From Gemmatimonadota bacterium (GTDB taxonomy: Bacteria > Gemmatimonadota > Gemmatimonadetes > Gemmatimonadales > GWC2-71-9): a DNA stretch of 64,000 nt. The stretch lies in contig JADKJZ010000014.1 of the NCBI GenBank assembly GCA_016720805.1, positions 193,772 through 257,771 of the forward strand, in the 5' to 3' direction. A program made the translations under genes and the position numbers. This document shows positions 6,226 through 63,423 of this stretch, piece after piece (position 1 is the stretch's first letter; each line of letters starts with the position of its first letter). The notes under the pieces were generated by a model, which was given only the letters and a program-made list of their open reading frames with translations, was not told where the DNA came from and searched no databases.

Positions 6226-6657
6226 GTGGCACGCACCAGACGTCGCGGTGGCACCAACGTCGCACCACCGTCCGAAGCAGCGGTTCTCCCAGGTCCCGCC
6301 GGCACCACCGTTTCTCGCCCCGCTGGACGCACCTACGGCTCCCATCGTGAATGGCTCCTGGCCAGGCACGGGTCGGTGTGCGCGTACTGTGGCGCCAAGG
6401 TTCCACCCGAAACCATCACGCTCGACCACGTCCGGCCGCGTCGCGGCCAGTCGGCCTACGACCGGCCCGACAACCTGGTCCTCGCCTGCCGCCCCTGCAA
6501 CGCCGCCAAGGCCGACATGCCGCTGCTGGCGTTCCTGATGGCGCGCCGCGCGCGTGGTGTCTTCCTGCTGCACTACGGCGATCACCTCTCCGACCCGCTG
6601 AAGGAATTGGTGCGGAAGTCGAGTGAGCGGCCGTTGTTGCCGCCGGAGAGTCGTTAG
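6226..6657 (+). CDS. HNH endonuclease
   Basis: CAYCG ... TLDHVRPRRGQ ... NLVLACRPCNAAK (His-Me finger with Cys pairs). GTG 6226 is preceded by GGAAG. Lower-GC promoter-like DNA at 6150-6225. The stop TAG lies in the heptamer array. Confidence 0.75.
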   Translation: MARTRRRGGTNVAPPSEAAVLPGPAGTTVSRPAGRTYGSHREWLLARHGSVCAYCGAKVPPETITLDHVRPRRGQSAYDRPDNLVLACRPCNAAKADMPLLAFLMARRARGVFLLHYGDHLSDPLKELVRKSSERPLLPPESR

Positions 6658-6783
6658 TCGTTAGTCGTTAGTCGTTAGGACGTAATGGAAAGAGGGTCGC
6701 GCATCACGGCAAATTGCTCGTGACTCGCGACCCTCTCAGCCTTTCACCCTAACGACTAACGACTAACGACTAACGACTAACGA
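6651..6783. repeat. Composite palindromic element: 4x TCGTTAG, GC hairpin, 5x CTAACGA
   Basis: Left array 6651-6678. Inner 11-bp stem AGAGGGTCGCG/CGCGACCCTCT at 6691-6736. Right array 6749-6783. Lies between convergent HNH and kgd. Confidence 0.9.
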
Positions 6784-9700
6784 CTCCAGCACCCTTTCCC
6801 CCCAACGCCTCTCCCACAATCCGCGCCTGCTCCGCCTTGTGCGCCGAGAGATAGCCCTCGGCTGGCGAGGCGCGCTCGGGACGGCCGATGTAGCGCATCG
6901 TCACGCCGGCCGGGAGAATGGTGCGCATCCGCGGCTCGATGAACGACCAGGCGCCCATGTTGCGCGGCTCTTCCTGCACCCACGCCACGTCGGTCAGCGA
7001 CGGATAGCGCGACAGCAGTTCCTTCACCTCGCGCTCGGGGAAGGGATAGAGCTGCTCGATCCGGGCGATCGGCGGGCGATCATCGCCGAGCTTGGCCGCC
7101 TCTTCGACGAGGTCGTAGTAGACCTTGCCGGTGCAGAGCAGCAGCGTGCGCGCGGCGGCGCGGCGACCGTTGGTGGCCGGATCGTCGAGGACCGTCTCGA
7201 AGCGGCCCGAGGAGAGATCGGCCAGCGAGCAGCTTGCGGCCGTGGCGCGGAGCAACGACTTCGGCGTCATCACGACCAACGGCCGGCGGATCGCCCACTT
7301 CGCCTGACGGCGCAGGACGTGGAAGTACTGCCCCGAGGTGGAGCAGTTGACCACGCGGATGTTGCCCTCGGCGGCCGACTGCAGGAAGCGCTCGACGCGC
7401 CCGCTGGAATGCTCCGGCCCCTGGCCCTCATAGCCGTGCGGCAGCAGCAGCGTGAGCCGCGAGGTGACGCCCCACTTCGACAGACTCGACGCGAGGAACT
7501 GGTCGAGCATCACCTGCGCGCCGTTCACGAAGTCGCCGAACTGCGCCTCCCACACCACCAGCGCCTCGGGCGCCGCCGTGGCATAGCCGTACTCGAAACC
7601 GATCGTCGCCAGTTCGGAGAGCGGCGAGTTGTGCACCTCGAGCGGCGCCGAGGCGCCTGGCAGCGCCTGCACCGGCGCGAAGACGTCGCCATTCAGTGCG
7701 TCGTGCAGGACCAGGTGGCGATGGGAGAAGGTGCCGCGCCCCACGTCCTGGCCGGTGAGCCGGATCGGAGTCCCCTCGACCAGCAGCGAGGCAAACGCCA
7801 GCGCTTCGGCGTGTCCCCAGTCGATGCCATGCGGTTCGATCAGCGCGCTGCGACGCTTCTCGAGCTGCTTCACCAGCTTCGGGTGCACCGTGAAGCCGGC
7901 CGGCCACGAGAGGAGCTGCTCGTTGAGCGAGGCGATCATCTCCGCCGGCAACGCCGTCTCGAGTTCGCCGGCCACGCCCGCATCGCGCGCCGGCTCGACC
8001 ACGGCAGCCGGCCGCCCGATCGACGACTTGAAGGAGGTCTGGATCTCGACAAAGCGGTCGTACGTCTTGGTCACCAGCGCATCGGCATCTCCAGCCGAGA
8101 GCACGCCGGCGCTCGCCAACTGCTCGGCGTAGCGGGCGCGCACCGTCGGCATCTCCTTGATCCGCGCGTACATCACCGGCTGCGTGTAGCCCGGCTCGTC
8201 CGTCTCGTTGTGCCCGTGGCGGCGATACCCCACCAGATCGATGAGCACGTCGTCTTCGAACTTGACGCGGTACGCCATCGCCAGGCGGACGGCCGCGAGG
8301 CAGGCCTCCGGGTCGTCGGCGTTGACGTGGATGATCGGGATGTCGAAGCCCTTGGCGAGGTCCGACGCCCAGCGCGTCGAGCGGCCGTCGCGCGGGTCGG
8401 TGGTGAAGCCGACCTGATTGTTGGCAATCAGGTGGACCGAGCCGCCGGTGTGATAGCCCGCGAGGTCGCCGAGATTCAGCGTCTCGGCCACGACGCCCTG
8501 CCCCGGGAAGGCGGCGTCACCATGGATGATCACGGGCAGCGCGGCCGTCGTGTCGACCACGGCTTCGCGGCCGCGACGATTGGTCTGCGCCGCGCGCGCC
8601 CGGCCATCGACCACCGGCCCGATGAACTCGAGGTGACTCGGGTTCGGCAGCAGCGCGACCGTGATGGCCTTGCCACCCTGCGTGACGAACGCTCCCTCGG
8701 CGCCGTGATGGTACTTCACGTCGCCGGTGCCACCATCTGGGGTCATCCCGCCGGTCGGTTGCTTGGCGCCTTCGAATTCGGCAAAGAGTGCCTCGTACGG
8801 GCGGCCGACGGTGTGCACCAGCACGTTCAGGCGGCCGCGGTGCGCCATGCCGAGCACCACGTCGCGTGCGCCCGCGTCTGCGGCGAGCTCGATCGTGAGG
8901 TCGAGCATCGGGACCATGATGTCGAGCCCTTCGATCGAGAAGCGCTTGGCACCGAGATACGCCTTGCCGAGGAAACGTTCGAGCCCCTCGACCTGCGTGA
9001 GCCGCTCGAGCAGGGCATGCTGCGCCTCCGCCGTGATCGGCTGGCGATGGGCGCCCGATTCGATCTGCTGCCGCAGCCAGACGCGCTGCTCGTGCGAGGC
9101 GATGTGCTCGACTTCGTAGGCGATCGTACCGCAATAGGTGGCCTGCAGGTGGGGCAGCGCCTCGGCGAGCGTCTTCCCGGGGACGGCGATGCGCAGCACG
9201 TCGGTCGGGATGGTCGCCATCGTGGCCTCGTCGAGGCCGACCGTGGCCGGGACGAGCGCCGGATCGCCGACCGGCGGCGTCCCGAGCGGATCGAGCTGCG
9301 CGGCCAAGTGGCCGTGGGTCCGGAACGCCTTGATCAGCGCCATCCCGGCCGCCACGTGCTGCAGCTGGGCCGGCGACGTGGTCGTGGCGGCGCTCGCGAT
9401 CGGCATCATGCCGGTCCAGCCCGCGGAGGCCGGGGGCGCGGCGACGGAGGCCGTTCCGGGGGTGGCGGTGAGGGGCGACGGGGTCGCAAGGCCGAAGGCC
9501 GCGAAGATCCCCTCGTAGAAACCGTGCTCGCCCTGAAGGAACTGGTCCACCAGCTTGAGGAAGTTCCCCGACTCCGCGCCCTGGATCACGCGGTGATCAT
9601 ACGTCGAGGTGATCATCATCACCTTGGCGATGCCGAGCGTGGCGATCTGTTCCTTCGACATCCCGGTGAACTCGGGCGGATAGGCGATCGCCCCGGTGGC

Positions 9701-10408: not shown

Positions 10409-10495
10409 GGCATCTCCGGCTTGGAGTCAACCTGACAAGATAATCGAGGAATCCCGGCCAGCGACCTCGCAGACACGACCCGTGACCTGTAACCC

Positions 10496-10564
10496 GGGTC
10501 GCGGGTCACGGGTCACTGGTCACGGCTCCTGGTCAGCGTTCACCCCTCACCCCTCACCCCTCAC
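10496..10564. repeat. Direct period-7 array: GGGTCGC, 2x GGGTCAC, TGGTCAC, GGCTCC, TGGTCAG, CGTTCAC, 3x CCCTCAC
   Basis: Read directly. One 6-nt unit, otherwise a single register. Lies in the divergent kgd/fadI gap and ends 15 nt before ATG 10580. Confidence 0.9.
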
Positions 10565-17570: not shown

Positions 17571-18869
17571 GTGCTGATGCTGGGGGGCGTGGCCGTCGCG
17601 GCTGCGCTCACCTGGCTGGTGCCGGCCGGCGAGTATGAACGGGTGGTGGACGCCGCCACCGGACGCACCATCGCCGTCGCCGGCACCTACCACGCGGTGC
17701 CTGACGCGCCAGTCGGGCCCTTCGCCGCCGTGATGGCGGTGCCTCGCGGCATCGCCGAGGGGATCGAGGTGATCCTCACCATCTTCCTCGTCGGTGGTGC
17801 CTGGTACCTGGTCGACAAGATCGGGACCCTCGGGCGCGCGGTGAACGCCCTCGCCTCGCGCTTTCGCGAAGGCAGCCTCCTCGCCCTCCCCCTCCTGATT
17901 CTCTTCTTCTCGATGATGGGTGCCGCCGAGAACATGCAGGAGGAGATCATCGCGCTGATCCCCGTGCTGCTGGTGCTCGGGAGCAGGCTCGGCGTCGACG
18001 CCGTCACCATGGTCGCGGCGAGTGCCGGTGCGGCAATGATCGGCAGCGCCTTCGGCCCGACCAATCCGTTCCAGGCGGGCATCGCGATGAAGCTCGCCGA
18101 GCTGCCGACCCTCTCCGGCGGCGCCCTCCGCACGGCGATGTGGATCGCGGGGACGGCACTCTGGACCGCCCTGACGTTGCGATGGGCAAGCCGGCATCGG
18201 GTGCCGGTGGCGAGTGCGCAGGTCACTCACGCGCCGTTGACCACGCGCGACGGGCTGATCCTCGCCTGCGTCACGGTGCCGCTCGCGGTCTACATCTACG
18301 GCGCCCTCCAGCTCGACTGGGGCTTCAACGAGCTCTCCTCGGCGTACTTCATCGGCGCCATCCTCGCCGGGGTCATCGCGCGTCTCAAGCTCGATGACAC
18401 CATCATCGGCTACCTCGAGGGGATGCAGTTGCTGCTCCCCGCCGCCCTGCTCGTCGGCGTGGCGCGCAGCATCACCGTCGTGCTCCAGGATGGGCACATC
18501 ATCGACACCATCCTCTACAGCATGGCCACGCCGCTCGCCAACGTCTCCACGACGGCCGCCGCGCTGCTGATGGTGCCGCTGCACGCGCTGCTGCACATCC
18601 CCGTCTCGAGTGTCAGTGGGCAGGCGGCGCTGACGATGCCGATCATGGTTCCGCTTTCGGACCTCCTCGGCGTCTCGCGCCAGGCCACGGTCCTGGCCTA
18701 CCAGGTCGGCGCCGGCCTCTGCGAATTGCTCACACCCACCAACGGCGCGCTGATGGCCGTCCTCCTCGCCGCCAAGGTTCCCTTCGGCGACTGGCTCCGC
18801 TTTGCGACCCGGGGCTATGCGCTGATGCTGGTCATCGGCATTGTGGGAATCCTCGTCGCGGTTCGCTGA
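17571..18869 (+). CDS. YfcC/DcuC-like anion carrier family membrane protein
   Basis: Polytopic protein resembling the YfcC (C4-dicarboxylate anaerobic carrier) family. The N-terminus may extend to CTG 17541. Confidence 0.7.
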   Translation: MLMLGGVAVAAALTWLVPAGEYERVVDAATGRTIAVAGTYHAVPDAPVGPFAAVMAVPRGIAEGIEVILTIFLVGGAWYLVDKIGTLGRAVNALASRFREGSLLALPLLILFFSMMGAAENMQEEIIALIPVLLVLGSRLGVDAVTMVAASAGAAMIGSAFGPTNPFQAGIAMKLAELPTLSGGALRTAMWIAGTALWTALTLRWASRHRVPVASAQVTHAPLTTRDGLILACVTVPLAVYIYGALQLDWGFNELSSAYFIGAILAGVIARLKLDDTIIGYLEGMQLLLPAALLVGVARSITVVLQDGHIIDTILYSMATPLANVSTTAAALLMVPLHALLHIPVSSVSGQAALTMPIMVPLSDLLGVSRQATVLAYQVGAGLCELLTPTNGALMAVLLAAKVPFGDWLRFATRGYALMLVIGIVGILVAVR

Positions 18870-18901
18870 TCGCCGTTCGCTTCTCGCTTCTCGAGTCTCG
18901 C
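18860..18901. repeat. Period-7 tract: GGTTCGC TGATCGC CGTTCGC TTCTCGC TTCTCGA GTCTCGC
   Basis: Six units of the form NNN-TCGC. Spans the yfcC stop (18867-18869) and ends 3 nt before the Rieske ATG 18905. Confidence 0.85.
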
Positions 18902-29147: not shown

Positions 29148-29168
29148 CTCTCGCTTCTCGCTTCTCGC
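29148..29168. repeat. Period-7 tract: CTCTCGC, 2x TTCTCGC
   Basis: Read directly, in the 41-nt gap between the lipoprotein start and the mazG stop. Confidence 0.8.
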
Positions 29169-29169: not shown

Positions 29170-29505
29170 TCACGTTGCCTGCTCCTCGTTGGTCTTCTTT
29201 GTCCATCGATCGGCATCCCGCGTCTCCACCTTCGCCATCATCGCGTCGAACGCCGCCTGCAGATCGATCCCCTCGCGGTTCGCCATGCAGATCAGCACGA
29301 AGAGGATGTCGGCCATCTCCATGCCAAGGTTGCCCTCCGCCTCCTCGGGCTTCTTGGTCTTCTGGCCGAAGCGGTGGTTCACCTCGCGCGCCAGCTCGCC
29401 CACCTCTTCGCTGAGGCGCGCCATGTTGGTCAGCGGATGGAAGTAGCCCTCCTCGAACTGGGCGATCCAGGCGTCGACGCGCCGTTGGGAGTCGGTCAGG
29501 GACAT
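29170..29505 (-). CDS. mazG: MazG-family nucleotide pyrophosphohydrolase (small)
   Basis: Start moved to ATG 29505. EEVGELAREV and EMADILFVLI motifs. Confidence 0.8.
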   Translation of the reverse strand: MSLTDSQRRVDAWIAQFEEGYFHPLTNMARLSEEVGELAREVNHRFGQKTKKPEEAEGNLGMEMADILFVLICMANREGIDLQAAFDAMMAKVETRDADRWTKKTNEEQAT

Positions 29506-29508: not shown

Positions 29509-29668
29509 TGGTGGGGGTGAGGGGAAGACGGCGAACAGCGAACGGCGAACGGGGGGAAACGTACCCGCGGAAGGGGTGAGGCGAAACGCGTTGCGTCCCA
29601 ACTCCCGTTCACCGGTCACTGGTCACTGGTCACTGGTCACCCCTCACCCCTCACCCCTCACCCCTCAC
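29509..29668. repeat. Period-7 arrays in a divergent gap. Left: GGGGTGA, GGCGAAC-type. Right: CGTTCAC, CGGTCAC, 3x TGGTCAC, 4x CCCTCAC
   Basis: Left tract 29509-29557, right tract 29606-29668. The centre contains the palindrome AACGCGTT (29584-29591). Confidence 0.9.
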
Positions 29669-29717
29669 CTATACTTCCCCCGCCAAACCAACCCGCCGTC
29701 CCCAACGGAGACCCTTG

Positions 29718-30036: not shown

Positions 30037-32154
30037 ATGGCTACTCGAACCCCTGCCCGCTCGCGGTCCGCCACCAAGCTCGACAAGGCCGACCTGCTTG
30101 AGTTCTACCGGTTGATGCTCCTCTCCCGGCGGCTCGACGACAAGGAAATCCAGCTCAAGCGCCAGAATCGGATCTTCTTCCAGATCTCCGGCGCCGGGCA
30201 CGAAGCGGTCCTGGTGGCGGCGGCGAAGGTGTTCCGCGCCGCCCACGACTGGTTCTACCTCTACTACCGCGACCGCGCCTTCTGCCTCGGCCTCGGCATG
30301 ACCGCCACCGAGCAGCTCCTCTCGGCCGTCGCGGCCGCCGAGGACCCGAACTCCGGTGGCCGGCAGATGCCGTCGCACTGGGGGCACAAGGAGCTCAACA
30401 TCGTCTCGACCTCCTCGCCGACCGGGACCCAGTTCCTGCAGGCGGTGGGCGCGGCCGAGACCTGGCTCCGCGCCTCCGCCGACGAGCGGCTGAGCGAGCT
30501 GACCCGCGGCGATGAGGTGGTCCTCTGCACCACCGGCGACGGCACCACCAGCGAGGGTGAGTTCTGGGAAGCGATGAATTCCGCGTGCAACCTCAAGTTG
30601 CCGGTGGTCTTCCTGGTCGAGGACAACGGCTACGCGATCTCCGTCCCGGTCTCGGTGCAGACCGCCGGCGGGTCGATCTCGAAGCTCTTTGCCTCCTTCC
30701 CGAACCTCTTGATCGTCGAGGTCGACGGCTGCGATCCGGTGGCCTCCCATGAGGCGATGCAGAAGGCGCACGACTACTGCCGTCAGCGGAAGGGGCCGGC
30801 GCTCGTCCATGCCCACGTCATCCGCCCCTACTCGCATTCGCTCTCGGACGATGAGGTCCACTACCGGACCACCGCCGAGCGTGAGGCTGATGCGCTCCGC
30901 GATCCAGTGGTCGTCTTCCCGCGGCAGCTGGTCGAACAGGGCGTGGCGACCGAAGCGGAATTGGCGCTGATTCAGCAGCAGATCGAGGAAGAGGTCACCA
31001 TCGCGACCGACATCGCGCTGGCCGCGCCGCAGCCGGCGCTGAACACCATCTACGACTACGTCTACTCGCCCGACGTCGATCCGACGGCCGAACAGTTCGA
31101 CACCGAAGACGATCCGCAGACCAGCGGCGACCCCACCACGATGGTCGACCTCCTCAACAGCTGCCTCAAGGACGAGATGACCCGCGATCCGCGGATCCTC
31201 GTCTTCGGCGAGGACGTTGCCGATGCCTCGAAGCCCGAGGCCCTCGGGGACGTGAAGGGGAAGGGCGGTGTCTTCAAGGTGACCTGGGGGCTGCAGAAGC
31301 TCTTCGGCTCGGACCGCGTCTACAACTCACCGCTCGCCGAGGCCAACATCGTCGGCCGCGCGATCGGCCTGGCCACGCGCGGGATGAAGCCGGTGGTCGA
31401 GATCCAGTTCTTCGACTACATCTGGCCCGCCTACATGCAGATCCGCGACGAACTCGCGCTGATGCGCTGGCGCTCCAACAACGCCTTCGCCTCGCCGGTC
31501 GTGATCCGCGTGACGTACGGCGGCTACCTCAAGGGTGGCGCGGTGTACCACTCGCAGACCGGCGCGGCGATCTTCACCGGCGTCCCCGGCCTCCGTGTGA
31601 TCTGCCCGAGCACCGCGCTCGATGCCAACGGACTCCTCCGGACGGCGATCCGTTGCGAAGACCCGGTGCTCTTCCTCGAGCACAAGCACCTCTACCGGCA
31701 GGCCTACAACAAGGGCGCCTACCCGGGCCCGAACTTCATGATTCCGTTCGGCAAGGCGAACGTGGTCAAGGAAGGCAGCGACGCCACGCTGATCACCTAC
31801 GGCGCCGTGGTCCAGCGCGCCGTGCAGGCCGCCAAGGACCTCGAGGAGGCCACCGGGCAGCGCGTCGAGGTGATCGACCTCCGCTCGCTCAATCCGGTCG
31901 ACTGGGACACCATCGCCGCCTCGGTCAAGAAGACCTCGCGCGTGATCGTCGCCTACGAGGATTCGCTCTCGTGGGGCTATGGCTCGGAGATCGCCGCGAA
32001 GATCGCCGACGAGATGTTCGAATGGCTCGATGCCCCGGTCCGCCGCGTCGCCGCGACCGACACCTTCGTCGCCTACGCGCCGGAGCTGGAAGACGTGATC
32101 CTGCCGCAGGTGGAGAGCTTGGGGAAGGCGATGCGGGAGATTCTGGCTTATTGA
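30037..32154 (+). CDS. 2-oxoacid (branched-chain/pyruvate type) dehydrogenase E1 component, fused alpha and beta subunits
   Basis: ATG 30037. E1-alpha ThDP region ([15 protein letters not shown]) followed by E1-beta transketolase-like region ([17 protein letters not shown]) in one 705-aa chain. Confidence 0.9.
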
Positions 32155-32156
32155 GG

Positions 32157-32295
32157 TCGTTAGTCGTTAGTCGTTAGTCGTTAGAAGTGGCATCATAAAG
32201 AGGCCGGCCTCCCAGTTGGGAAGCCGGCCTCTGTCTCTAACGACCAACGCCTAACGACTAACGACTAACGACTAACGACTAACGACTAACGACTA
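32157..32295. repeat. Composite palindromic element: 4x TCGTTAG, hairpin AGAGGCCGG...CCGGCCTCT, 8x CTAACGA-type
   Basis: Left array 32157-32184, hairpin 32199-32232, right array 32237-32292 plus CTA. Lies between the convergent E1 and kinase genes. Confidence 0.9.
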
Positions 32296-34572: not shown

Positions 34573-37080
<2,508 letters not shown>

Positions 37081-37190
37081 TCGTTAGTCGTTAGTCGTTG
37101 GTCGTTAGGCACCTACTCGAAAGGCCGGTCTCCTTGCATGGAGGCCGGCCTTTCTCTAACGCCTAACGCCTAACGCCTAACGACCAACGA
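37081..37190. repeat. Composite palindromic element: 4x TCGTTAG-type, hairpin AAAGGCCGG...CCGGCCTTT, 3x CTAACGC + CTAACGA + CCAACGA
   Basis: Left array 37081-37108, hairpin 37120-37153, right array 37156-37190. Lies between convergent lon and the GGDEF gene. Confidence 0.9.
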
Positions 37191-40723: not shown

Positions 40724-40830
40724 GGATGATGGATGATAGATGATGGATGATTGATCAGAAATCAGTCTTGATCGCCACGCGGATGTCCGTCCGTTCGAAT
40801 CCATCGTCCATCATCCATCATCCATCATCC
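40724..40830. repeat. Inverted period-7 arrays: about 5x GGATGAT-type and about 5x ATCCATC-type
   Basis: Left array 40724-40758, right array 40799-40830, inside a lower-GC island (about 40640-40860). Confidence 0.85.
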
Positions 40831-43205: not shown

Positions 43206-44285
43206 GTGAAGATTGCCATCTCGACCGGCGGCGGCGACGCCCCCGGCCTCAATGCAGTCATTCGTGCCGCCGTCCTCACCGCGCATGATCGCGGTTGGGA
43301 AACAGTGGGCATTCGTCGTGGCTTCCACGGGCTCCTGGACGGCAGCGGTGTCGTGCCCCTCGGCGCTGCCGAAGTCAGCGGCATCACGCATCTGGGCGGT
43401 ACCATCCTCGGGAGCACGAACCGCGGCAACCCGCTCCGCTGGCCGAAGCTGCAGCCGGATGGCCGGGTGGTCGAGATCGACCGGGGCGACGAGTTGATCG
43501 CGGCCTTTCGTCGCGAGGGCATTGACGCCCTCATCTCGATTGGTGGCGACGGTTCGCTCGCGATTGCCGGCACGCTCTGGGAGCGTGGCCTTCAGGTGGT
43601 CGGCGTGCCGAAGACGATCGACAACGACGTCGTCGGCACCGACACGACCTTCGGCTTCGACACCGCGGTCTCCACCGCGACCGAGGCACTCGACAAGCTG
43701 CACACCACGGCCGAGTCGCATGACCGCGTGATGGTGGTCGAGCTGATGGGGCGCGAGGCGGGGTGGATCGCGCTGCACAGCGGCATCTCCGGAACGGCCG
43801 ACGTCATCCTGATTCCGGAAATTCCCTTCTCGCTCGAGAAGGTCTGCGAGAAGATTCGCGAGCGCGAGCGGCACGGGCGACACTTCTCGATCGTCGTCGT
43901 CGCTGAAGGGGCGCAGACCGTCGATGGCGGCCCGGTCTTCCGCGAGCGGCGGAGCGCCGGCACGGTCGACCGGCTCGGCGGCATCGGCGAACAGGTGGCG
44001 CACGGCATTGCGCAGGTCACCGGCAAGGAGACGCGCTCGCTGGTCCTCGGCCACCTCCAGCGTGGCGGCTCGCCGACGACGTTCGATCGGTTGCTCGCGC
44101 TGCGCTTCGGCTCGGCGGCGGTCCGCGCCATCGCCGACGGCGACTTCGGCACCATGGTGGCCTACACGCCGCCGGTCATCTCGCGCGTCCCGATCGCCGA
44201 CGTCGTGGGCCGGATGAAGACGGTGCCGCTCGATTCAGGGATTATCCTGACGGCGCGGCACCTGGGGATTTCGTTCGGCGACTAG
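43206..44285 (+). CDS. pfkA: 6-phosphofructokinase
   Basis: GGDAPGLNA, IGGDGS, PKTIDND, MGR and GHLQRGG. Confidence 0.9.
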   Translation: MKIAISTGGGDAPGLNAVIRAAVLTAHDRGWETVGIRRGFHGLLDGSGVVPLGAAEVSGITHLGGTILGSTNRGNPLRWPKLQPDGRVVEIDRGDELIAAFRREGIDALISIGGDGSLAIAGTLWERGLQVVGVPKTIDNDVVGTDTTFGFDTAVSTATEALDKLHTTAESHDRVMVVELMGREAGWIALHSGISGTADVILIPEIPFSLEKVCEKIRERERHGRHFSIVVVAEGAQTVDGGPVFRERRSAGTVDRLGGIGEQVAHGIAQVTGKETRSLVLGHLQRGGSPTTFDRLLALRFGSAAVRAIADGDFGTMVAYTPPVISRVPIADVVGRMKTVPLDSGIILTARHLGISFGD

Positions 44286-44416
44286 ACGGCGAACGGCGAA
44301 CGGCGAACGGCGAACGGCGAACAGCGGTAAGGGGTGAGGAGTGAGGGGGAACAAACCCCTGACCCCTCACCCCTCACCGTTTCCAACCGTTCGCTGTTCG
44401 CTGTTCGCTGTTCGCT
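44286..44416. repeat. Nested palindrome: 5x ACGGCGA + GGGGTGA-type block, loop, CCCCTCA-type block + 4x GTTCGCT
   Basis: Outer arms 44286-44327 and 44389-44416. Inner arms 44331-44348 and 44356-44378. Fills the whole pfkA/VOC convergent gap. Confidence 0.9.
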
Positions 44417-45192
44417 TACGCCGGCATCTCATACTTGATGACATAAAACATCACCCCCTGCGGTGACGCGATCCCCGCCATCCGCCCCACCGTCGGGATA
44501 TCGACGGGCGGCATGAAGACGCTGCCGCCGCTCGCGGTGGCCTTTGCGGCCGCGGCGTCGACATTGTCGACCGTCATGTACACCGCCCAGTGCGACGGGA
44601 AATTTCCCATCTCCGGCGTGATCGCCATCATCCCGCCCACCATCCGGTCGCCGGCATGGAAGACCGAGTAGTCCATCCCCGGCATGCTCATCTTCTCGAT
44701 TCGCCAGCCGAAGAGCGCGCTCCAGAAGGCGCCGGCCTTCTCGGTCTCGTACGTCGCGAGCTCGATCCAGCTCGGCGCGCCGTGATGCATCGAATCGGCC
44801 GTCATGCCTGGTGACACCCCGGCCTGCCAGACATCCATCTCGGCCCTGAACGGATCGAAGGTCTCGGCCATCCGCCCCGTCGGTCCGACGTCGAACGCCG
44901 GCTTCCCCAGCCCGCCGAGCTCGTTGGCCTTGGCCGACGCCGCGTCGGCGCTCTCGACGCGGATCATCAACCCGATGCCGGGTGGCGTGCTCGGGGGCAT
45001 GTTGGGGCCGCTCGTGTCCCACATCCCCCCGACTTCCTGACCACCCACCTTGATCAGGTGGCCGCCCATCTCCGGGATCTCGGAATACTCCCAGCCGAGC
45101 ACGCCGGCGAAGAAGGCCCGCGCATCCGACGACGCAGGCGTGAGCACGTTGATCCAGCAGAATTCGCCAATCCGACGCGGACCTGAGAGCAT
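44416..45192 (-). CDS. VOC (glyoxalase/bleomycin-resistance) family protein, two-domain
   Basis: Two tandem beta-alpha-beta-beta-beta modules (FCWINVLT ... and WIELATYE ...). 258 aa. Confidence 0.75.
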   Translation of the reverse strand: MLSGPRRIGEFCWINVLTPASSDARAFFAGVLGWEYSEIPEMGGHLIKVGGQEVGGMWDTSGPNMPPSTPPGIGLMIRVESADAASAKANELGGLGKPAFDVGPTGRMAETFDPFRAEMDVWQAGVSPGMTADSMHHGAPSWIELATYETEKAGAFWSALFGWRIEKMSMPGMDYSVFHAGDRMVGGMMAITPEMGNFPSHWAVYMTVDNVDAAAAKATASGGSVFMPPVDIPTVGRMAGIASPQGVMFYVIKYEMPA

Positions 45193-45220: not shown

Positions 45221-45419
45221 GGTGAACGGTGAACGGTTAAAAGTGACCTGTGACCGGTGACCAGTGATCAGGAACTGGTAAGGGGTGAGGGGGCGCCCAT
45301 TCGGACGGATGTTCACGTCCTCCCGTTTCACCTGCCAGCCGTAACACCTCGGTCACAGGTCACAGGTCACAGGTCACAGGTCACAGGTCACAGGTCACAG
45401 GTCACTGGTCACCGTTCAC
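45221..45419. repeat. About 200-nt mirrored period-7 structure. Left: 2x GGTGAAC, GTGACC-type, GGGGTGA-type. Right: CGGTCAC, 7x AGGTCAC, TGGTCAC, CGTTCAC
   Basis: Left tract 45221-45290, right tract 45350-45419. The pabA stop TGA lies inside the right tract. Confidence 0.9.
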
Positions 45420-48374: not shown

Positions 48375-48465
48375 AGTGAACGGTCAACGGTGAACGGTGA
48401 ACGGGCCTCCGAGCCGCAGCGCCGCAACCGATGGCATCGATCACCGTTCACCGTTCACCGTTCAC
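48375..48465. repeat. Inverted period-7 arrays: AGTGAAC GGTCAAC 2x GGTGAAC / CGATCAC 3x CGTTCAC
   Basis: Left array 48375-48402, 35-nt centre, right array 48438-48465 ending 18 nt before ATG 48484. Confidence 0.9.
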
Positions 48466-53591: not shown

Positions 53592-55634
53592 CGGGCCGCG
53601 GGTCGGGCCCGGCCACGTCCCGCACGCACCAACCGCTCGAGCCGCTCGCCGAGGCGGTCCACGGCATCGCGGTGGGCCGCGAGCGCCGTGGCCAACTGCG
53701 CGCGTTCGGCCATGAACGATTCCAGCACGGCGGTCAGGTGTTCATCACGCGCGCTGCGTCGCGCCGCCACCATGTTCGCTTCCTCGATCGCGGGCCAGAG
53801 CGCCCGGGCCGAACTCTCGAGGCCGCCCGCGAGTTCCGTGATTCGGCGCGCGGTCACTTCGCTCGCCTCGGCCTCCCGAATCGCTTCGGTCAACGCGTGG
53901 CGGAGCGTCTCCAGTTCCGATTGCAGTGCGGTGCCGTCGCTGGCGAGGGCCGCCGTCTGCGCGGCAATCGCGCTCGACGCATCGGTGGTGGCATCGGCGA
54001 GGCGCCGGATCTCCTCGGCGAGGACCGTGAAGGTCCGCCCTGCCGCGCCGGCGCGGCTTGCCTCGAGCGCCGCCGTGTTGGCCAGCAAGTTGGTGCGGAA
54101 CGCGACCCCGCTCACGGTGTCGTTGCTCGCCGCGATGGCCTCACTGTGTCGGTCGATCGCGGACAAGTCCACGCGCAGTGCCGCCAGGCCGTCGACGGCG
54201 CGCGCGATGGCGTCGGTGGCCGCGCGGGTGTGCGCGCGCGCTTCCGCGACCGCGGTCTCGAGCCCGTCACTCCGCGCGCCGATGGCCTTGCTGCCGTCAC
54301 TCAACTGGGTGAGCACCTCGCTGGCGTCGACGGGCAACGGCAGCCCGCGGCCGTCGTCGGTCACCAACTCCGGCAACAACCCGGTGGCGTGCGCCAACCC
54401 GCGACTCACTTCGCCGGCATCGTGCGCAAAGCCGCCGAGTTGCATCTCCCGCTCGGCTTCCCGTCGCCGCACTCGAATCGTCGAGGAAATCGGCCCGAGA
54501 AAGGCGAGCAGCCACTCCCGCTCGCGGCGGCCAAAGGCTCCCCGGAAAGCGCCCTTCGAGATACACCTCGCCGAGCGGATCGCCGCTCCGGCCGATCGGC
54601 GCCACGACCGAACGCCGCTCGTCGAAGGTCTCGGCGTCCGGCACGAACGCCCCCTCGGGCCGCGCGCGCCGTGGGGTCCCGACCGTGACTTCCAGATCTG
54701 GCGTCCCGATCCGGATCACCACGGCCTCCGCCTCGAAGATCGTCCGCAACTGTTCGGCGCTCTCGCGAATGCCGGCTTGCAGGTCGGCGTCGTCCAGCAG
54801 ACGCTGGGCGAGCCGATAGGCCGCCAGGTCCCGCTTCCGTGGATTGACCATCGGCAGGGCAAGGATCCCCCCCAAGCCGAAGATGGCCAACAGCGGAAGG
54901 GTCGTGAAGACCGGGAGAATGGGGAGCCCAATCGACCCCAGCAGCTCGGGCACCAGCGAACTCACCACCGCCGGGACCAGGCCGAAGAGGACCGCCGCCA
55001 GCGTCCAGCTCACGGCCTGGCGCTGGGAGGCCCGGCGATTGGACGAGGCCAGCGAGAGCAGGAGCGCGCCGACGGCCAGGGTGGCCCCGACCGGTTCAAA
55101 GGTCTGCCGCAGGAAGAAGCCGTCGACCACCCGGAGGAGCGGCGCCTCGCCAAAGGCGATCCCCCCGGCGGTGGCCACAAAGAGGGCGCCGTGGAGGGCA
55201 TACCAGCCGGTCACGATCCCGAACCAGAAGCGCTGCTGGTGGTTCCAGGCGACCGCGAGTGCGAAGTGGACGACGACGGGCGTCAACAGGTAACGCCACG
55301 GGCCGACGATCAGAAACAGCCCGAGCGGGGTGGACTTGCTGACTGGCGCGTCAAGGGACAGGAGCGCAGTCAGGACGGCCGCGGCCGAGACGAGCCCGAG
55401 GAATGGGGCGGTCGGTGGGGCCTCCGGCGTCTGGATGAGCGCCAGGACACCCAGTCCGAGCAGGAGCAGGGCCACCAGCCCGGAGACGGCGACCACGGTC
55501 GAGTCCGGTGCCGGCGAAATGAGGAGGGGGCCGACGACCAGCCCCGCACTGATACAGGCGACCGCCGCAATGAGCGGCCAGCTCCCGAGCGGGCGGCGGA
55601 GTGACACGGAGGCGGTCGTTTGGGCATCAGTCAT
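53588..55634 (-). pseudogene. Polytopic membrane sensor - GAF-like - MCP signalling domain protein, frameshifted near 54540 (or sequence error)
   Basis: 5' ORF 54297-55634 (MTDAQ ..., about 8 TM, ... GEVYLEGRFPG). It continues in another frame as AFGRREREWLLAFLGPISSTIR ... into ORF 53588-54472, which carries NLLANTAALEASRAGAAGRTFTVLAEEIRRLAD. Confidence 0.6.
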
Positions 55635-55712
55635 GGATGAGGGAAGAATATGGCCCGTCGGAGCGGGGAGAGGAAACCGCCCCACGTCACCAACTGAAAC
55701 CAAGAGGCCCCC

Positions 55713-56192
55713 TTGGGCGTATCACCTGACATGACCCAGCCGATGATGACCCCGACCCTTCCGTCGGTCTTCTCGCCGCTCGCGAAGGCGCTCCTCGATT
55801 CATTCAACGAGGGCGTCATCGTGTTCGACAAGGACGGGCGGATTCTCTACCTCAACGCCTCCGGGCGTGATTCCCTCGCCGAGGCTGGACTGGATCCCGC
55901 CGGTGAGAAGGACGACCTCCTCCCTGAGCTCGCCGGGATGGGTGGTCGGCTCGCCCCGATCCGGGTTGGTTCGTTGGAACTCGGTGAGGCGATCTTCCTC
56001 CCCCGCCGGGAGGGTCCGACCACCCTCGCGGAGCGAGAAAAGGACGCGATTGTCCGCTCGCTCGAGGCGCACAATTGGCGCCTCGCGGAAACGGCAAAGA
56101 CCCTCGGCATCTCGCGCACCACGCTGTGGCGTCGCCTCCGTGCCTATGGCCTCCACCGTGACGGGCGCACCAAGTGGGATCAGGCGTCGTAG
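55713..56192 (+). CDS. PAS-like plus Fis-type HTH DNA-binding protein
   Basis: C-terminal EREKDAIVRSLEAHNWRLAETAKTLGISRTTLWRRLRAYG. Alternative start ATG 55731. Confidence 0.7.
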   Translation: MGVSPDMTQPMMTPTLPSVFSPLAKALLDSFNEGVIVFDKDGRILYLNASGRDSLAEAGLDPAGEKDDLLPELAGMGGRLAPIRVGSLELGEAIFLPRREGPTTLAEREKDAIVRSLEAHNWRLAETAKTLGISRTTLWRRLRAYGLHRDGRTKWDQAS

Positions 56193-58355: not shown

Positions 58356-58894
58356 CCCGAGGCCGGCTGATCGTCGTCGTGGCGCTGCTCCTGGCTGCCG
58401 CCGGGGCAGGGCTCTGGTGGTGGCGCGGGCGTGACGGCGCCCTGCCGCTGGGCGGCGTGCCGGCGGACGCCATCGCCCTCAGTTGGAAGGGGAAGTTCAA
58501 GGGGAGCGCCACGCTCCCGGCGACGGTGAACTGGTGCCCGGGGAGTCGCGTCGCCATCGTCGAGGGACTCTCCAACGACACCGGCTTCGTGATGGTCGTC
58601 CATGCGGCCGACACGCTCGCGAAGGGGACGATGTCGGTGCTGCCGGCCGAGTTCATCGCGGCGGCTGGCGGCCCGCGCCCCGCGGCGTCCAGTGCCCTGC
58701 GCTGGCCAGCCGATACCGCGATCCTCGCGGGGTATCGCGGTCAGAATGGGCTGGTCGAGTTGGTGCCCCAGGGCGGGCGTCTTTCCGCCACCTTCACGAT
58801 CCGGATGCAACCGCCGATGTCCTCGGACACGATCAGCGTCACCGGGGCGTTCCGGAACCTGAAGGTGGAGTCGCGGGCGGTGGGCTGCCCCTGA
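58352..58894 (+). CDS. Membrane-anchored hypothetical protein
   Basis: GTGA overlap. N-terminal TM helix LIVVVALLLAAAGAGLWWW. GC3-rich codons. Confidence 0.55.
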   Translation: MTRGRLIVVVALLLAAAGAGLWWWRGRDGALPLGGVPADAIALSWKGKFKGSATLPATVNWCPGSRVAIVEGLSNDTGFVMVVHAADTLAKGTMSVLPAEFIAAAGGPRPAASSALRWPADTAILAGYRGQNGLVELVPQGGRLSATFTIRMQPPMSSDTISVTGAFRNLKVESRAVGCP

Positions 58895-58896: not shown

Positions 58897-58931
58897 GACG
58901 ATGATCGATGATCGATCATCGATGATCGATC
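58897..58931. repeat. Period-7 array: GACGATG ATCGATG ATCGATC ATCGATG ATCGATC
   Basis: Read directly. Self-complementary ATCGAT core. Lies 2 nt after the stop at 58894. Confidence 0.9.
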
Positions 58932-58953: not shown

Positions 58954-60168
58954 TTGTCGAGTATCTTCCCCCTCATGGAATCCACCTACTTCCGCCGCGG
59001 TTTCGGCCTCAAGGGCGAGATCGAGGCGCAGCGCTCGGCGGACTATGCCAGCGGGATCGTCGAGACCGTCCGGGCCAACGGGAACCGGCTGCAGGTCGGT
59101 CCGCTGACCTTCCGGCTCGCCAAGGAATTCGGCTTCTGTTACGGCGTCGATCGCGCCGTCGACTATGCCTACGAGACTCGTCGCAAGTTCCCCGATCGTC
59201 GGTTGCTGTTGGTGGGCGAGATCATTCACAATCCGCACGTGAATGAGAAGCTCGCGGCGATGGGGATCATCTTCCTCGAGCACAACCCCGGCGCGGACTT
59301 CGATTTCACCGACATCACGCCCGAAGACGTCGTCATCATCCCCGCCTTCGGCGTGACGATGAAGGACTTCCAGCGGCTGCGCGCCATTGGCTGTGTGCTG
59401 GTGGACACCACCTGCGGGTCGGTCCTCAACGTCTGGAAGCGGGTCGACAGTTATGCCCGTGATGGCTACACCGCGGTCATCCACGGCAAGCACTACCACG
59501 AGGAGACGCAGGCCACGGCGTCGCAAGCGACCAAGCACGATGGCGGGAAGTACCTGGTCGTCTTCGACATGGCCGAGGCGCGTATGGTCTGCGATGTGAT
59601 CGAGGGGAAGGGCGACGCGTCTGCGCTGGCGGAGCGGTTCGCGAAGGCCTGTTCGCCCGGCTTTGATTTTACGGCTGATCTGCGGCGAATCGGGGTCGCC
59701 AACCAGACCACGATGCTCTCCGGGGAATCGCTGGCCATCGCGGCCGAGCTCCGGAAGTCGCTGATCGTGGCCTATGGCGAGGCCGCCGTGGACGATCATT
59801 TTCGCTCCTTCGACACCATCTGTTCCGCCACGCAGGAGCGTCAGGATGCCGTGGTCGAGCTGCTCCAGGAGCCGCTCGACCTGATGCTGGTGGTGGGAGG
59901 CTACAACTCCTCCAACACTTGCGCCCTGGCCGCCCTGGCCCAGAGCAAGGGCGTCCGGACCTACCACCTCGAGGATGCGGAGGGGGTGGACCCGGAGGCC
60001 GGTACCCTTCGGCACCAGCCGGTCCGCACCAAGCGGGAAGAGGTCCTGGCCGATTGGCTGGGTGACGCGAAGATCATCGGCATCACCGCCGGCGCCTCGA
60101 CCCCCAACAACAAGATCGGCGAGACGATCGCTCGGGTGGGGGCGATGATCGGCGTGGAAGTGAGGTAG
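58954..60168 (+). CDS. ispH: 4-hydroxy-3-methylbut-2-enyl diphosphate reductase, long (cyanobacterial/plant-like) form
   Basis: FGFCYGVDRAV, HNPHVN, and the Cys and His motifs of LytB. Has an N-terminal extension. Start is TTG 58954 or ATG 58975. Confidence 0.9.
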   Translation: MSSIFPLMESTYFRRGFGLKGEIEAQRSADYASGIVETVRANGNRLQVGPLTFRLAKEFGFCYGVDRAVDYAYETRRKFPDRRLLLVGEIIHNPHVNEKLAAMGIIFLEHNPGADFDFTDITPEDVVIIPAFGVTMKDFQRLRAIGCVLVDTTCGSVLNVWKRVDSYARDGYTAVIHGKHYHEETQATASQATKHDGGKYLVVFDMAEARMVCDVIEGKGDASALAERFAKACSPGFDFTADLRRIGVANQTTMLSGESLAIAAELRKSLIVAYGEAAVDDHFRSFDTICSATQERQDAVVELLQEPLDLMLVVGGYNSSNTCALAALAQSKGVRTYHLEDAEGVDPEAGTLRHQPVRTKREEVLADWLGDAKIIGITAGASTPNNKIGETIARVGAMIGVEVR

Positions 60169-60290
60169 GGAACGGCGAACGGCGAACGGCGAACGGGACG
60201 AAGGGTGAAACGTGAGACGTGAAACGGGAGCCAACGAGCGGCCCACGTTTCACGTTTAACCTTTCACCATCTCCGTACCCGTTTGCCGTC
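60167..60290. repeat. Period-7 arrays. Left: 3x GGCGAAC + GTGAAAC/GTGAGAC block. Right: GTTTCAC-type block + degenerate GTTTGCC
   Basis: Left tract 60167-60229, centre GCCAACGAGCGGC, right tract 60244-60290. Starts at the ispH stop codon. Confidence 0.85.
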
Positions 60291-60975: not shown

Positions 60976-61097
60976 TGGTCGATACTCGCCGGGCCGAACA
61001 GCGAGTCCGTGACTTCACAGCCAAGGACCGTTCGGCAGACCGCGCTTCTGCTCACGCTGCGTCTCTGCGCGATAGAGAGCGCTACCGAAAATCTTGA

Positions 61098-61148: not shown

Positions 61149-61156
61149 GATCACAT

Positions 61157-62603: not shown

Positions 62604-62681
62604 CGGGGAGAGCTGATCCGCGAGGGCGGCGACTTCGGCGGGGAGGGGCCAGGAGGGTGCACCCCGAAACTATACTACCAA

Positions 62682-62710
62682 ATCGATGATCGATGATCGA
62701 TCATCGATTA
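62682..62710. repeat. Period-7 array: 2x ATCGATG, ATCGATC, ATCGATT
   Basis: Read directly. The yceI stop TAA (complement of 62708-62710) lies in the last unit. Confidence 0.85.
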
Positions 62711-63310
62711 CTTCCCGTCCTTCACGAAGTTGAAATCCAGCTCCAGCTGAATCGGATCATCCACGCGCGCCACCACCGGCACGCGAGGCACCGCAATGCC
62801 GAAATCGGAGAAGACGAACTTCGTCTTGGCCGTCCCGGTCAGCCCGGTCGGGCTCGCGGTGGCGGTGACGGTCCAGGTGGTTGGCTTGGTGACCCCCTTG
62901 AGGGTCAGGTCGCCCACCAACGTGAAGTTCAGCGCACCGCTGGTTGGCATCTTCGCCGGGAGGCCAGTGATCTCCTTGACGACGAGGACGGCGTTCGGGT
63001 AGGTCGCCGTCTCGAGGGTGTTGCGCTGCACGTACCCGTCGCGGCGATCGCGGTCGGTCTTCAGCAGGGTGAGGTCGATCGTGATCTTGGAGCCGGAGGA
63101 GACCACCTTGCCCGCCTTGTCGAGCGCGATCCCCCCGGTCACGCCGGCCGTCTTGCCGACGACGTCATTTTCGATGGTGTTGGCGGCGAGCAGCTCCCGG
63201 ACCTGATAGCGCGCCTCGGTGCCGGTGGGGTTCAGCGTGTAGTGGCTCTGGGCGGCCAACGGGGTGGCAGTCAGGCTCAGGAGGGCAAGGGTCGTGGCAA
63301 GGCGGGTCAT
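62708..63310 (-). CDS. YceI-family periplasmic (polyisoprenoid-binding-like) protein
   Basis: Signal peptide plus the YceI pattern (GVTGGI ... KTDRDRRD ... LTLKGVTKP). Confidence 0.8.
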   Translation of the reverse strand: MTRLATTLALLSLTATPLAAQSHYTLNPTGTEARYQVRELLAANTIENDVVGKTAGVTGGIALDKAGKVVSSGSKITIDLTLLKTDRDRRDGYVQRNTLETATYPNAVLVVKEITGLPAKMPTSGALNFTLVGDLTLKGVTKPTTWTVTATASPTGLTGTAKTKFVFSDFGIAVPRVPVVARVDDPIQLELDFNFVKDGK

Positions 63311-63388
63311 CGGGTCCGGGACTCCAGATTGGGGTGCATCGCAGGTGACGAATCAATACGGGGCGAGGGCACGGGGGGTTGCACCGCC

Positions 63389-63423
63389 ATCGATGATCGA
63401 TCATCGATGATCGATCATCGATG
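63389..63423. repeat. Period-7 array: ATCGATG ATCGATC ATCGATG ATCGATC ATCGATG
   Basis: Read directly. It encodes the last residues (SSMIDHR) and the TGA stop of the polymerase gene. Confidence 0.9.

What the first reader, a model, noticed from the sequence alone, without database searches (positions are those of the whole stretch)
6655..63423. Arrays supply stop codons and C-terminal residues of flanking genes
Stop codons lie inside arrays for HNH (TAG 6655-6657), kgd (complement of 6770-6772; tail VVSR), yfcC (TGA 18867-18869), pabA (complement of 45409-45411; tail GER), yceI (complement of 62708-62710) and the polymerase (complement of 63401-63403; tail SSMIDHR is entirely repeat-encoded). 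Stops of lon, the Ser/Thr kinase, pfkA, VOC and ispH directly abut an array. In the orientation read by the incoming gene, most units contain TGA or TAG. Because 7 is not a multiple of 3, three consecutive units present a stop in all three frames. The arrays therefore act as frame-independent translation stops on both strands, and copy-number change could alter protein C-termini.
Basis: partly seen in the sequence, partly recalled or inferred. Interest (0 to 1): 0.6.

Follow-up and report, generated by a model that had tools for sequence, protein, structure and literature searches.

The report
Heptamer-repeat hairpins that end genes
Many genes of this Gemmatimonadales bacterium end inside hairpins built from 7-base repeats that carry stop codons in every reading frame, but this looks like a side effect of how the repeats are built and where they can survive, not a purpose-built stop device.

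Summary
The yceI stop overlaps its array by only 1 nt, and the DcuC stop lies in a degenerate array.

Genome-wide figures:
- Period-7 arrays are strongly over-represented: 251 perfect arrays, against 0-54 for other periods.
- 291 of 3030 genes have an array within 30 nt of their stop.
- 115 stops lie fully inside an array.
- About 74 genes have array-coded C-terminal residues, with recurrent tails such as ...GER, ...DDG, ...IDHR and ...VVSR.

The orientation bias is also real. Next to stops, 141 arrays show the stop-bearing strand to the gene and 26 do not.

- Orientation is a fixed polarity of the hairpin, with the G-rich arm 5' on both strands (119:1).
- That polarity holds in divergent spacers where no gene reads in (17:0).
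- It holds for stop-less unit families and for a family with stops on both strands.
- Copy-number change does not alter tails. Turnover of the unit family and of the array boundary between congeners does.
- Stop triplets are still enriched beyond base composition (19 units against 9.5 expected), so a survivorship filter at gene ends is plausible.

The kind of repeat is already described in Xanthomonas, Nostoc and Beggiatoaceae. This scan had also noted it before on other windows of this same genome.

The parts
6649..6678 (+). (AGTCGTT)x4.3, 5' arm; contains the HNH stop TAG 6655-6657 and codes its last two residues (SR)
   Evidence: HNH domain
6679..6748 (.). Unique GC-rich central hairpin between the two arms (AGAGGGTCGCG...CGCGACCCTCT)
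   Evidence: the whole element folds at -91 kcal/mol, z = -12.8
6749..6785 (-). (CTAACGA)x5.3 on the + strand, i.e. (AGTCGTT)n as read by kgd; contains the kgd stop (complement 6770-6772) and codes the tail VVSR
10495..10564 (.). CGGGTCA / TCACCCC arrays in the divergent kgd-thiolase spacer; C-rich on +, with only a short partner arm
18860..18901 (+). Degenerate GTTCGCT/TCTCGCT array in the C-rich orientation, holding the DcuC (yfcC) stop TGA 18867-18869. Congeners have a full GGATGAT or CGATGAT hairpin at this position.
29149..29168 (-). (GAGAAGC)n as read by MazG, a stop-less unit, starting 1 nt after the MazG stop (complement 29170-29172)
29528..29669 (.). ACGGCGA, then GGTCACT and TCACCCC arrays upstream of the 29718 gene; poorly paired
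32156..32184 (+). (GTCGTTA)x4.1, starting 1 nt after the E1 dehydrogenase stop TGA 32152-32154
32237..32295 (-). (CTAACGA)x8.4 on the + strand; contains the Ser/Thr kinase stop (complement 32293-32295)
37077..37108 (+). (TTAGTCG)x4.6; contains the lon stop TAG 37078-37080
37156..37189 (-). CTAACGC/CTAACGA arm, ending 5 nt before the GGDEF response-regulator stop (complement 37195-37197)
40724..40830 (.). GGATGAT x4.6 ... ATCCATC x4.6 hairpin; the stop of the 40842 gene lies 11 nt away
44286..44416 (.). Nested hairpin: outer arms (ACGGCGA)x5.9 / (GTTCGCT)x4 are stop-less, inner arms are GGGGTGA / TCACCCC. It abuts the pfkA stop (44283-44285) and the VOC stop (complement 44416-44418).
   Evidence: -105 kcal/mol
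45221..45419 (.). GGTGAAC/AGTGACC arm ... (GGTCACA)x8.9 arm; contains the pabA stop (complement 45409-45411) and codes the tail GER
48376..48465 (.). GTGAACG x4.1 ... TCACCGT x3.6 hairpin in a divergent spacer (PTPS / 48397 gene); same polarity with no incoming gene
58899..58930 (+). Self-complementary CGATGAT/CGATCAT array, starting 4 nt after the stop of the 58352 gene (58892-58894)
60170..60267 (+). (GAACGGC)x3.9, stop-less, starting 1 nt after the ispH stop TAG 60166-60168; followed by an inner GTGAAAC / CACGTTT hairpin
62682..62708 (-). ATCGATG/ATCGATC array; the yceI stop (complement 62708-62710) overlaps it by 1 nt
63388..63424 (-). CATCGATGATCGAT x2.6; contains the DnaE2 stop (complement 63401-63403) and codes the tail SSMIDHR

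Best explanation
The window is full of one dispersed kind of element: a long hairpin whose arms are inverted tandem arrays of a 7-nt unit. More than 20 unit families occur, and arrays are often nested around a unique GC-rich central stem. The element fills the spacer right up to the stop codon of the flanking gene.

Shown:
- The element has one fixed polarity. The G-rich strand of the unit forms the 5' arm on both DNA strands.
- In most families that strand contains T followed by two purines (TGA, TAG or TAA).
- Because 7 and 3 share no factor, three units put a stop in every frame. Any ORF that reaches an array therefore ends within about 7 codons.

Inferred:
- Stop codons and short C-terminal tails come to lie in arrays because arrays spread, or are replaced, up to the first position where the protein no longer tolerates change.
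- Arrays with inward stops can sit against a gene end, or creep into it, without causing read-through. Stop-less arrays get translated when they do so.
- The stop-richness is therefore a composition effect plus a survivorship filter, not a device aimed at genes.
- The hairpin itself most likely serves as, or is tolerated as, a transcript 3'-end structure. That step is untested.
For: - Period-7 excess and intergenic location.
- Hairpin stability: -57 to -105 kcal/mol, z = -8 to -15.
- Polarity: of 132 inverted pairs, 81 have stops inward, 0 outward, 32 on both strands and 19 on neither. In divergent spacers the count is 17:0. G>C in the 5' arm 119:1.
- Stop-less families (AACGGCG, AACAGCG, AAGCGAG) and the both-strand family AGTCGTT (47:0) keep the same polarity and also abut stops.
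- Array-coded stretch before the stop: 0-6 nt in 74 genes, 7-20 nt in 39, more than 20 nt in 2.
- Congeners at 91% and 85% nucleotide identity carry a hairpin at the same loci with a different unit family on both arms. After lon the units are AGTCGTT, CGATGAT and GAGTCGT. The stop position and C-terminus are conserved in 10 of 16 genes.
- Stop-less arrays are read through in congeners: pabA ...FLANGEQRTANSP* and ...EIRDTRYEIR*.
- A copy-number difference leaves the tail unchanged.
- The kgd and DnaE2 tails are hypervariable even in array-free congeners, which shows low constraint where arrays overlap.
- The Xanthomonas GGGAATC arrays show the same placement, with the G-rich strand just after the stop and convergent pairs (PMC4692102). 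By my own reading of that unit, it contains no stop triplet.
Against: - Stop triplets in 5'-arm units exceed what base composition predicts. 19 of 23 distinct units carry one against 9.5 expected (z = 4.65). All 19 units whose composition allows a stop have one.
- The AGTCGTN variants used by three congeners all keep a stop, though a different one each time: TTAG, TGAG, TAAG, TAGG. This fits direct selection for stops as well as it fits a filter.
- No transcript data could be obtained, so the terminator or stabiliser role is only inferred.
- The hairpins lack U tracts.
- The cause of the fixed polarity is unexplained.
Confidence: 0.6

Rival explanations
1. The arrays are selected as frame-independent translation stops. 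They catch in-frame, read-through and frameshifted ribosomes at gene ends on both strands, in a 68% GC genome where off-frame stops are rare.
For: - Stop enrichment beyond composition.
- Different but always stop-bearing variants of one family in congeners.
- Both other frames closed within 30 nt in 83% of genes with a stop-bearing array, against 7% without.
- 141:26 orientation next to stops.
Against: - The polarity is identical where no gene reads in (17:0).
- Stop-less families occupy the same positions with the same polarity.
- T-containing but stop-less units exist in congeners: GGAGGAT, GAGATAC, ATGGTCG.
- Arms facing genes keep stops no better than other arms.
- The heptamer arrays of Xanthomonas and Nostoc described in PMC4692102 contain no stop triplet (my reading of the units).
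- About 90% of genes have no array within 30 nt of their stop.
- Many congeners have no arrays at all.
Confidence: 0.2
2. The stop triplets are incidental parts of a sequence motif (core GTGA / ATGA / GTCGT). The motif is imposed by whatever writes or binds the arrays: a trans-acting protein, a template, or a bias of a polymerase. On this view neither translation nor a filter at gene ends shapes them.
For: - The 23 units fall into about three related superfamilies with a conserved GTGA or GATGAT core.
- The unit repertoire shifts genome-wide between congeners. (AGTCGTT)3 gives 52 hits here, 0 in G010 and 12 in G015; (RGTCGTA)3 gives 31, 134 and 96.
- The same central palindrome is flanked by different unit families.
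Against: - No candidate factor was found.
- The RAYT-like gene is flanked by a different 34-nt repeat and correlates only loosely with arrays.
- The DnaE2 association is mostly one clade that lacks both.
- Units show no Shine-Dalgarno-like affinity beyond composition.
Confidence: 0.15
3. Chance or artefact: mis-called gene ends, or assembly errors in a metagenome-assembled genome, create the apparent overlap of stops and arrays.
For: Gene calls outside the window are my own codon-usage calls. The genome is a MAG.
Against: - The flanking genes in the window have Pfam domains that reach their C-termini.
- The same loci carry hairpins in two independently assembled congeners.
- The period-7 excess is extreme.
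Confidence: 0.03

Closest known systems
GGGAATC / GGGGA(C/T)T heptameric repeats of Xanthomonas and Nostoc (Rehm et al. 2015, PMC4692102)
   Same: - Period-7 tandem arrays of about 4 units, strongly intergenic.
- G-rich strand within 50 nt after the stop on the coding strand, sometimes overlapping it.
- 70-75 convergent inverted pairs per genome.
- Under-represented between divergent genes.
- Length and sequence vary between close relatives.
- Function unknown.
   Different: - There, essentially one unit family with GGG tracts that form G-quadruplexes, and (my reading) no stop triplet.
- Here, more than 20 unit families, mostly without G tracts and mostly with TGA/TAG/TAA in the G-rich strand.
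- Here, arrays are nested around a central stem and whole families are replaced between congeners.
TAACTGA direct repeats of marine Beggiatoaceae, cyanobacteria and Bacteroidetes (MacGregor 2015, PMC4679880)
   Same: [quoted passage not shown] Thirteen ORFs there end in such repeats.
   Different: - Those are direct repeats placed a few nt upstream of start codons, with a proposed role in translation initiation.
- There is one unit sequence and only one indirect (inverted) repeat.
- Here the arrays are inverted hairpin arms placed after stops.
REP / REPIN elements with RAYT transposases
   Same: Dispersed extragenic palindromes at gene 3' ends. A RAYT-like Y1 transposase gene is present in the genome.
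   Different: - No conserved element sequence: 75 of 101 centres are unique.
- The arms are microsatellites.
- The RAYT-like gene is flanked by its own 34-nt repeat, not by heptamers.
Rho-independent (bidirectional) terminators
   Same: GC-rich hairpin immediately after convergent or tandem genes. The central stems resemble GGCCGGC-type terminator stems.
   Different: No U tract. Stems of 30-60 bp are far longer than usual. The hairpins are also present in divergent spacers.

Membership tests
Heptameric intergenic simple-sequence repeats with convergent pairs (Rehm 2015 type) | Period-7 tandem arrays strongly over-represented relative to other periods | tested here: met
   251 perfect arrays of at least 3 copies, against 0-54 for periods 4-12
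Heptameric intergenic simple-sequence repeats with convergent pairs (Rehm 2015 type) | Intergenic bias; G-rich strand just after the stop on the coding strand; C-rich strand before starts | tested here: met
   373 of 546 arrays are fully intergenic. For solitary arrays after a stop, G>C 78:29; before a start, C>G 23:9.
Heptameric intergenic simple-sequence repeats with convergent pairs (Rehm 2015 type) | Paired arrays in convergent (inverted) orientation | tested here: met
   132 inverted pairs with a median gap of 47 nt; stable folds
Heptameric intergenic simple-sequence repeats with convergent pairs (Rehm 2015 type) | G-quadruplex potential: four units, each with a G3+ tract | tested here: not met
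   By inspection of the units, only the GGGGTGA family (33 of 251 arrays) has a G tract. GGATGAT, CGATGAT, AGTCGTT and AACGGTG do not.
TAACTGA-type stop-laden heptamer repeats (MacGregor 2015) | Unit that places stops in all three frames when tandem | tested here: met
TAACTGA-type stop-laden heptamer repeats (MacGregor 2015) | Direct repeats of TAACTGA a few nt upstream of start codons | tested here: not met
   The units differ. The arrays are inverted pairs placed after stops.
REP/REPIN with RAYT | Conserved palindromic unit shared by all copies and clustered around a RAYT gene | tested here: not met
   Centres are mostly unique. The RAYT-like gene is flanked by a different 34-nt repeat.
MITE | Conserved terminal inverted repeats plus a conserved internal sequence | tested here: not met
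   Only the 7-nt unit is shared between loci. 13 of 101 centres share a 70-nt palindrome, but with different arm families.
Intrinsic terminator | GC-rich stem-loop followed by a U tract; transcripts end there | tested here: inconclusive
   The stem is present. No U tract: none of the hairpins is among the terminator-like sites.
Contingency-locus (phase-variation) SSR | A change in repeat number shifts the frame or promoter spacing of a gene | tested here: not met
   The arrays lie at 3' ends. About 8 versus 2 units leave the pabA product unchanged.

The most novel reading that the evidence does not exclude
The arrays are not ordinary slippage products. They are written by a polar, trans-acting process, for example templated or snap-back extension of both 3' ends at a break or stalled hairpin, followed by rejoining.

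That would explain four things at once:
- the invariant orientation, with the G-rich strand running 5'->3' towards the centre on both sides;
- the symmetric nesting of different families;
- the fact that both arms always switch family together;
- the genome-wide shift of unit repertoire between congeners at 91% identity.

On this view, stop triplets and arrays starting at stop codons would follow from end-resection survivorship.
Probability: 0.1. Interest if true: 0.85.

Novelty: new variant of a known kind. Interest (0 to 1): 0.4.

Why it matters
- **Annotation.** About 4-5% of the genes in this genome end inside a fast-evolving repeat, and about 2% carry a repeat-coded tail. C-termini in such lineages are therefore partly set by repeat turnover. 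Annotation pipelines and orthologue alignments should expect tails such as ...GER* or ...MMDDG* on unrelated proteins.
- **The open question of heptamer repeats.** The data sharpen the long-standing question of what bacterial heptamer repeats are. They show an absolute strand polarity that is independent of gene context. They show co-variation of both arms across species. They show genome-wide switching of unit families. Each of these constrains any mechanism.
It turns out to be a consequence of the repeat architecture, not its purpose.

Tried and rejected
- **Shine-Dalgarno-like binding of the G-rich units to the 16S 3' end.** Duplex energies are no better than those of permuted units.
- **RAYT as driver.** A Y1_Tnp gene is present in array-free congeners and was not found in some array-bearing ones. 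In this genome it is flanked by its own 34-nt repeat.
- **DnaE2 as driver.** The raw association was 8/8 array-rich against 2/9 array-free congeners. On a pabA tree it collapses mostly to one clade that lacks both.
- **MITE hypothesis.** Centres are mostly unique.
- **RNA-level selection, tested by G-U asymmetry on the transcribed strand.** 4 against 5 cases, so uninformative.
- **Better stop retention in arms that face genes.** No difference, but the test is blurred by cross-matching of related families.
- **Near-identical strains.** The metagenome scan with the GGDEF protein gave only distant paralogues, best 67%. An exact-protein look-up found nothing.
- **Rfam.** No family matched in the window.
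Full report
**What is there**

The window is G000:C14:193772-257771 of a 3.5-Mb, 68% GC genome. Its closest named relatives are Gemmatimonadales MAGs, with Lon protein up to 94% identical.

TRF and a direct scan show many period-7 tandem arrays. Genome-wide there are 251 perfect arrays of at least 3 copies. Periods 4-12 give 0-54 each. The 251 arrays fall into 23 unit families. The main ones are GGATGAT, CGATGAT, AGTCGTT, GGGGTGA and AACGGTG.

With TRF score >=36 there are 546 arrays. Of these, 373 are fully intergenic and 150 overlap a gene end.

The arrays come mostly as inverted pairs around a central GC-rich stem, sometimes nested. At pfkA/VOC, for example, the outer arms are GAACGGC and the inner arms GGGGTGA. 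The whole elements fold into hairpins of -57 to -105 kcal/mol, z = -8 to -15. No Rfam family matches. None has a U tract.

**Checking the observation**

Flanking genes were identified by Pfam: HNH, Kgd-type 2-oxoglutarate dehydrogenase, DcuC/YfcC carrier, MazG, E1 dehydrogenase, Ser/Thr kinase, Lon, GGDEF regulator, PfkA, VOC/glyoxalase, PabA-type amidotransferase and IspH. The polymerase is a DnaE2-type error-prone polymerase.

Refinements:
- The lon and kinase stops are inside their arrays, not merely abutting.
- The yceI stop overlaps its array by a single base.
- The DcuC stop lies in a degenerate array that faces the gene in the C-rich orientation.

Genome-wide, using my own codon-usage gene calls, 291 of 3030 genes have an array within 30 nt of their stop. 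Of these, 115 stops lie fully inside an array, 25 overlap an edge and 57 abut.

About 74 genes have at least one array-coded codon. The array-coded stretch before the stop is 0-6 nt in 74 genes, 7-20 nt in 39, and more than 20 nt in only 2. That is what stops in all three frames within 21 nt predict. Unrelated proteins share array-coded ends...GER (14 proteins)...DDG (11)...IDHR/IDDR...VVSR...VRGEG.

Both other reading frames are closed within 30 nt of the stop as follows:

| Gene class | Closed within 30 nt |
|---|---|
| Stop-bearing array | 83% |
| Stop-less array | 15% |
| No array | 7% |

For arrays overlapping a stop or within 10 nt of it, the stop-bearing strand faces the incoming gene 141 times and the opposite strand 26 times. 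Most of the 26 are the self-complementary CGATGAT/CGATCAT arrays. For single families the counts are GGATGAT 47:1, AACGGTG 16:0 and AGGGGTG 13:1. So the bias is real.

It is not set by the genes, however. Of 132 inverted pairs, 81 have stops reading inward only and none has stops reading outward only. In divergent spacers, where no gene reads in, the count is 17:0. The window's own example is 48376-48465.

The rule that covers nearly all pairs is G>C in the 5' arm, 119:1. Stop-less families (AACGGCG, AACAGCG, AAGCGAG) obey it and also abut stops. AGTCGTT, which has TAG on one strand and TAA on the other, is still oriented 47:0.

Congeners show 16 inward, 0 outward and 9 stop-less pairs. Arms facing genes keep their stop triplets no better than arms that do not, although that test is weak.

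Rehm et al. describe the same placement for GGGAATC arrays in Xanthomonas: the G-rich strand just after the stop, and convergent pairs (PMC4692102). By my own reading, that unit holds no stop triplet.

**Is stop content more than composition?**

Yes, with a caveat. Permuting each distinct 5'-arm unit predicts 9.5 of 23 with a stop. Nineteen have one (z = 4.65). All 19 units whose composition allows a stop have one.

The AGTCGTN family appears in three congeners as TTAG, TGAG, TAAG and TAGG variants. All of them carry stops.

The caveat is that the units fall into about three related superfamilies, so the number of independent events is small. Congeners also hold T-containing stop-less units: GGAGGAT, GAGATAC, ATGGTCG.

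**Orthologue comparison**

Two congeners are syntenic over the whole window, G010 at about 91% and G015 at about 85% nucleotide identity. At nearly every locus a hairpin is present, but the unit family is often different, and it differs on both arms together. After lon the units are AGTCGTT, CGATGAT and GAGTCGT. After pfkA they are GAACGGC+GGGGTGA, CCTGTGA and GAACGGC+GTGAAAC.

In 10 of 16 genes the C-terminus and the stop position are unchanged. HNH keeps ...PPESR* in G010, where its stop is TGA and lies outside the array.

In six genes the tail changes with the array:

| Gene | Tails seen |
|---|---|
| kgd | AGVVSR* vs VVVGKS* |
| DcuC | R* vs G* |
| ispH | R* vs G* |
| pabA | FLGER* vs FLQG* |
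| yceI | DGK* vs EK* |
| DnaE2 | ...GPRPQGSSESSMIDHR* vs ...GGER* |

A copy-number difference alone leaves the protein unchanged, as in pabA with about 8 versus 2 units. In other congeners, stop-less arrays are translated (pabA ...FLANGEQRTANSP*...EIRDTRYEIR*). The ...GER* tail recurs on DnaE2 where a GGTGAAC array follows it.

The kgd and DnaE2 tails are hypervariable even in array-free congeners. Arrays therefore overlap coding sequence where constraint is low.

**Interpretation**

The arrays do end ORFs in any frame on both strands, and they do write short tails. The evidence favours a passive account. The element has an intrinsic polarity with the G-rich arm first. G-rich units that contain T and A tend to hold T-purine-purine triplets. 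Arrays with inward stops can lie against gene ends, or invade them, without causing read-through. I give this 0.6.

Direct selection for an all-frame stop function gets 0.2. A motif imposed by an unknown writer or binder gets 0.15.

The hairpin's own role is inferred only. It could be a transcript 3'-end structure or a tolerated mutational by-product.

**Comparison with the known**

MacGregor 2015 (PMC4679880) states for TAACTGA repeats that forward repeats give stops in all three frames and are therefore necessarily at ORF ends. Rehm 2015 describes heptamer arrays at and overlapping stops, in convergent pairs, with unknown function.

I found no paper on such arrays in Gemmatimonadota in the library.

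This scan had already reported the hairpins on other windows of this genome, including one case of stops supplied to both convergent genes. I checked the cited paper and the general claim myself.

New here:
- the multi-family, stop-bearing variant of the repeat;
- the absolute polarity, independent of gene context;
- the co-switching of both arms between species;
- the genome-wide shift of unit repertoire. (AGTCGTT)3 gives 52 hits here, 0 in G010 and 12 in G015. (RGTCGTA)3 gives 31, 134 and 96.

**Side observations**

Arrays are patchy within the genus, from 0 to 39 per 100 kb. Leads on a RAYT-like gene, on DnaE2 and on a 70-nt central palindrome are listed under Noticed in passing. Neither gene is supported as the cause of the arrays.

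Noticed in passing
window 63401-64000 (gene continues to G000:C14:259556); congeners G001-G056: DnaE2 (error-prone polymerase) was found in all 8 congeners that I sampled as array-rich, and in only 2 of 9 array-free ones. On a rough pabA tree, most of that association is one clade lacking both. G011 and G023 have DnaE2 without arrays. This is a lead only.
   Followed up: partly
G000:C10:32400-33418: A RAYT-like Y1 transposase gene (179 aa, with HVH and Y motifs). Next to it are four tandem copies of a 34-nt REP-like unit, GATGGCCCGCGCGGGCAGGGATCGCCATTGGTA. This is a second repeat system, unrelated to the heptamers.
   Followed up: partly
13 hairpin centres in G000, e.g. C1:50803-50885, C14:420518-420610, C6:70249-70329; also the G015 HNH/kgd spacer: A dispersed palindrome of about 70 nt sits at the centre of hairpins whose arms belong to different heptamer families: GTCATCCCGARCG..GAGGGAYCTGCGTG-loop-CACGCAGRTCCCTC..CGGGATGAC. 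At the HNH/kgd locus it is present in G015 but not in this genome.
   Followed up: partly
genus-wide samples (loci L031-L078, L206-L245): Heptamer arrays are patchy within one genus. G010 and G015 have about 39 per 100 kb. G056, G014, G012, G022 and G013 have 9-17. Nine other congeners and a genome of another family have 0-1.
   Followed up: yes
G000, G010, G015, G006 whole genomes: The unit repertoire shifts genome-wide between close species. (AGTCGTT)3 gives 52 hits here, none in G010 (91% identical in the window) and 12 in G015. (RGTCGTA)3 gives 31, 134, 96 and 137 hits. This amounts to concerted evolution of dispersed arrays.
   Followed up: partly
L260, L266 (lon 3' spacers of other Gemmatimonadales MAGs): Some lineages carry period-8 G-rich arrays (CAGCGGGG)n in the same position after the lon stop. 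The position and the G-rich polarity are therefore more conserved than the period of 7.
   Followed up: no
L005 (G006:C18:1-2255), downstream of pabA: A long run of G (about 60 nt) follows a GGGGTGA array. It may be an assembly artefact at a repeat.
   Followed up: no
window 54445-55731: About 1.3 kb without a gene call in my codon-usage gene finder. Not examined.
   Followed up: no
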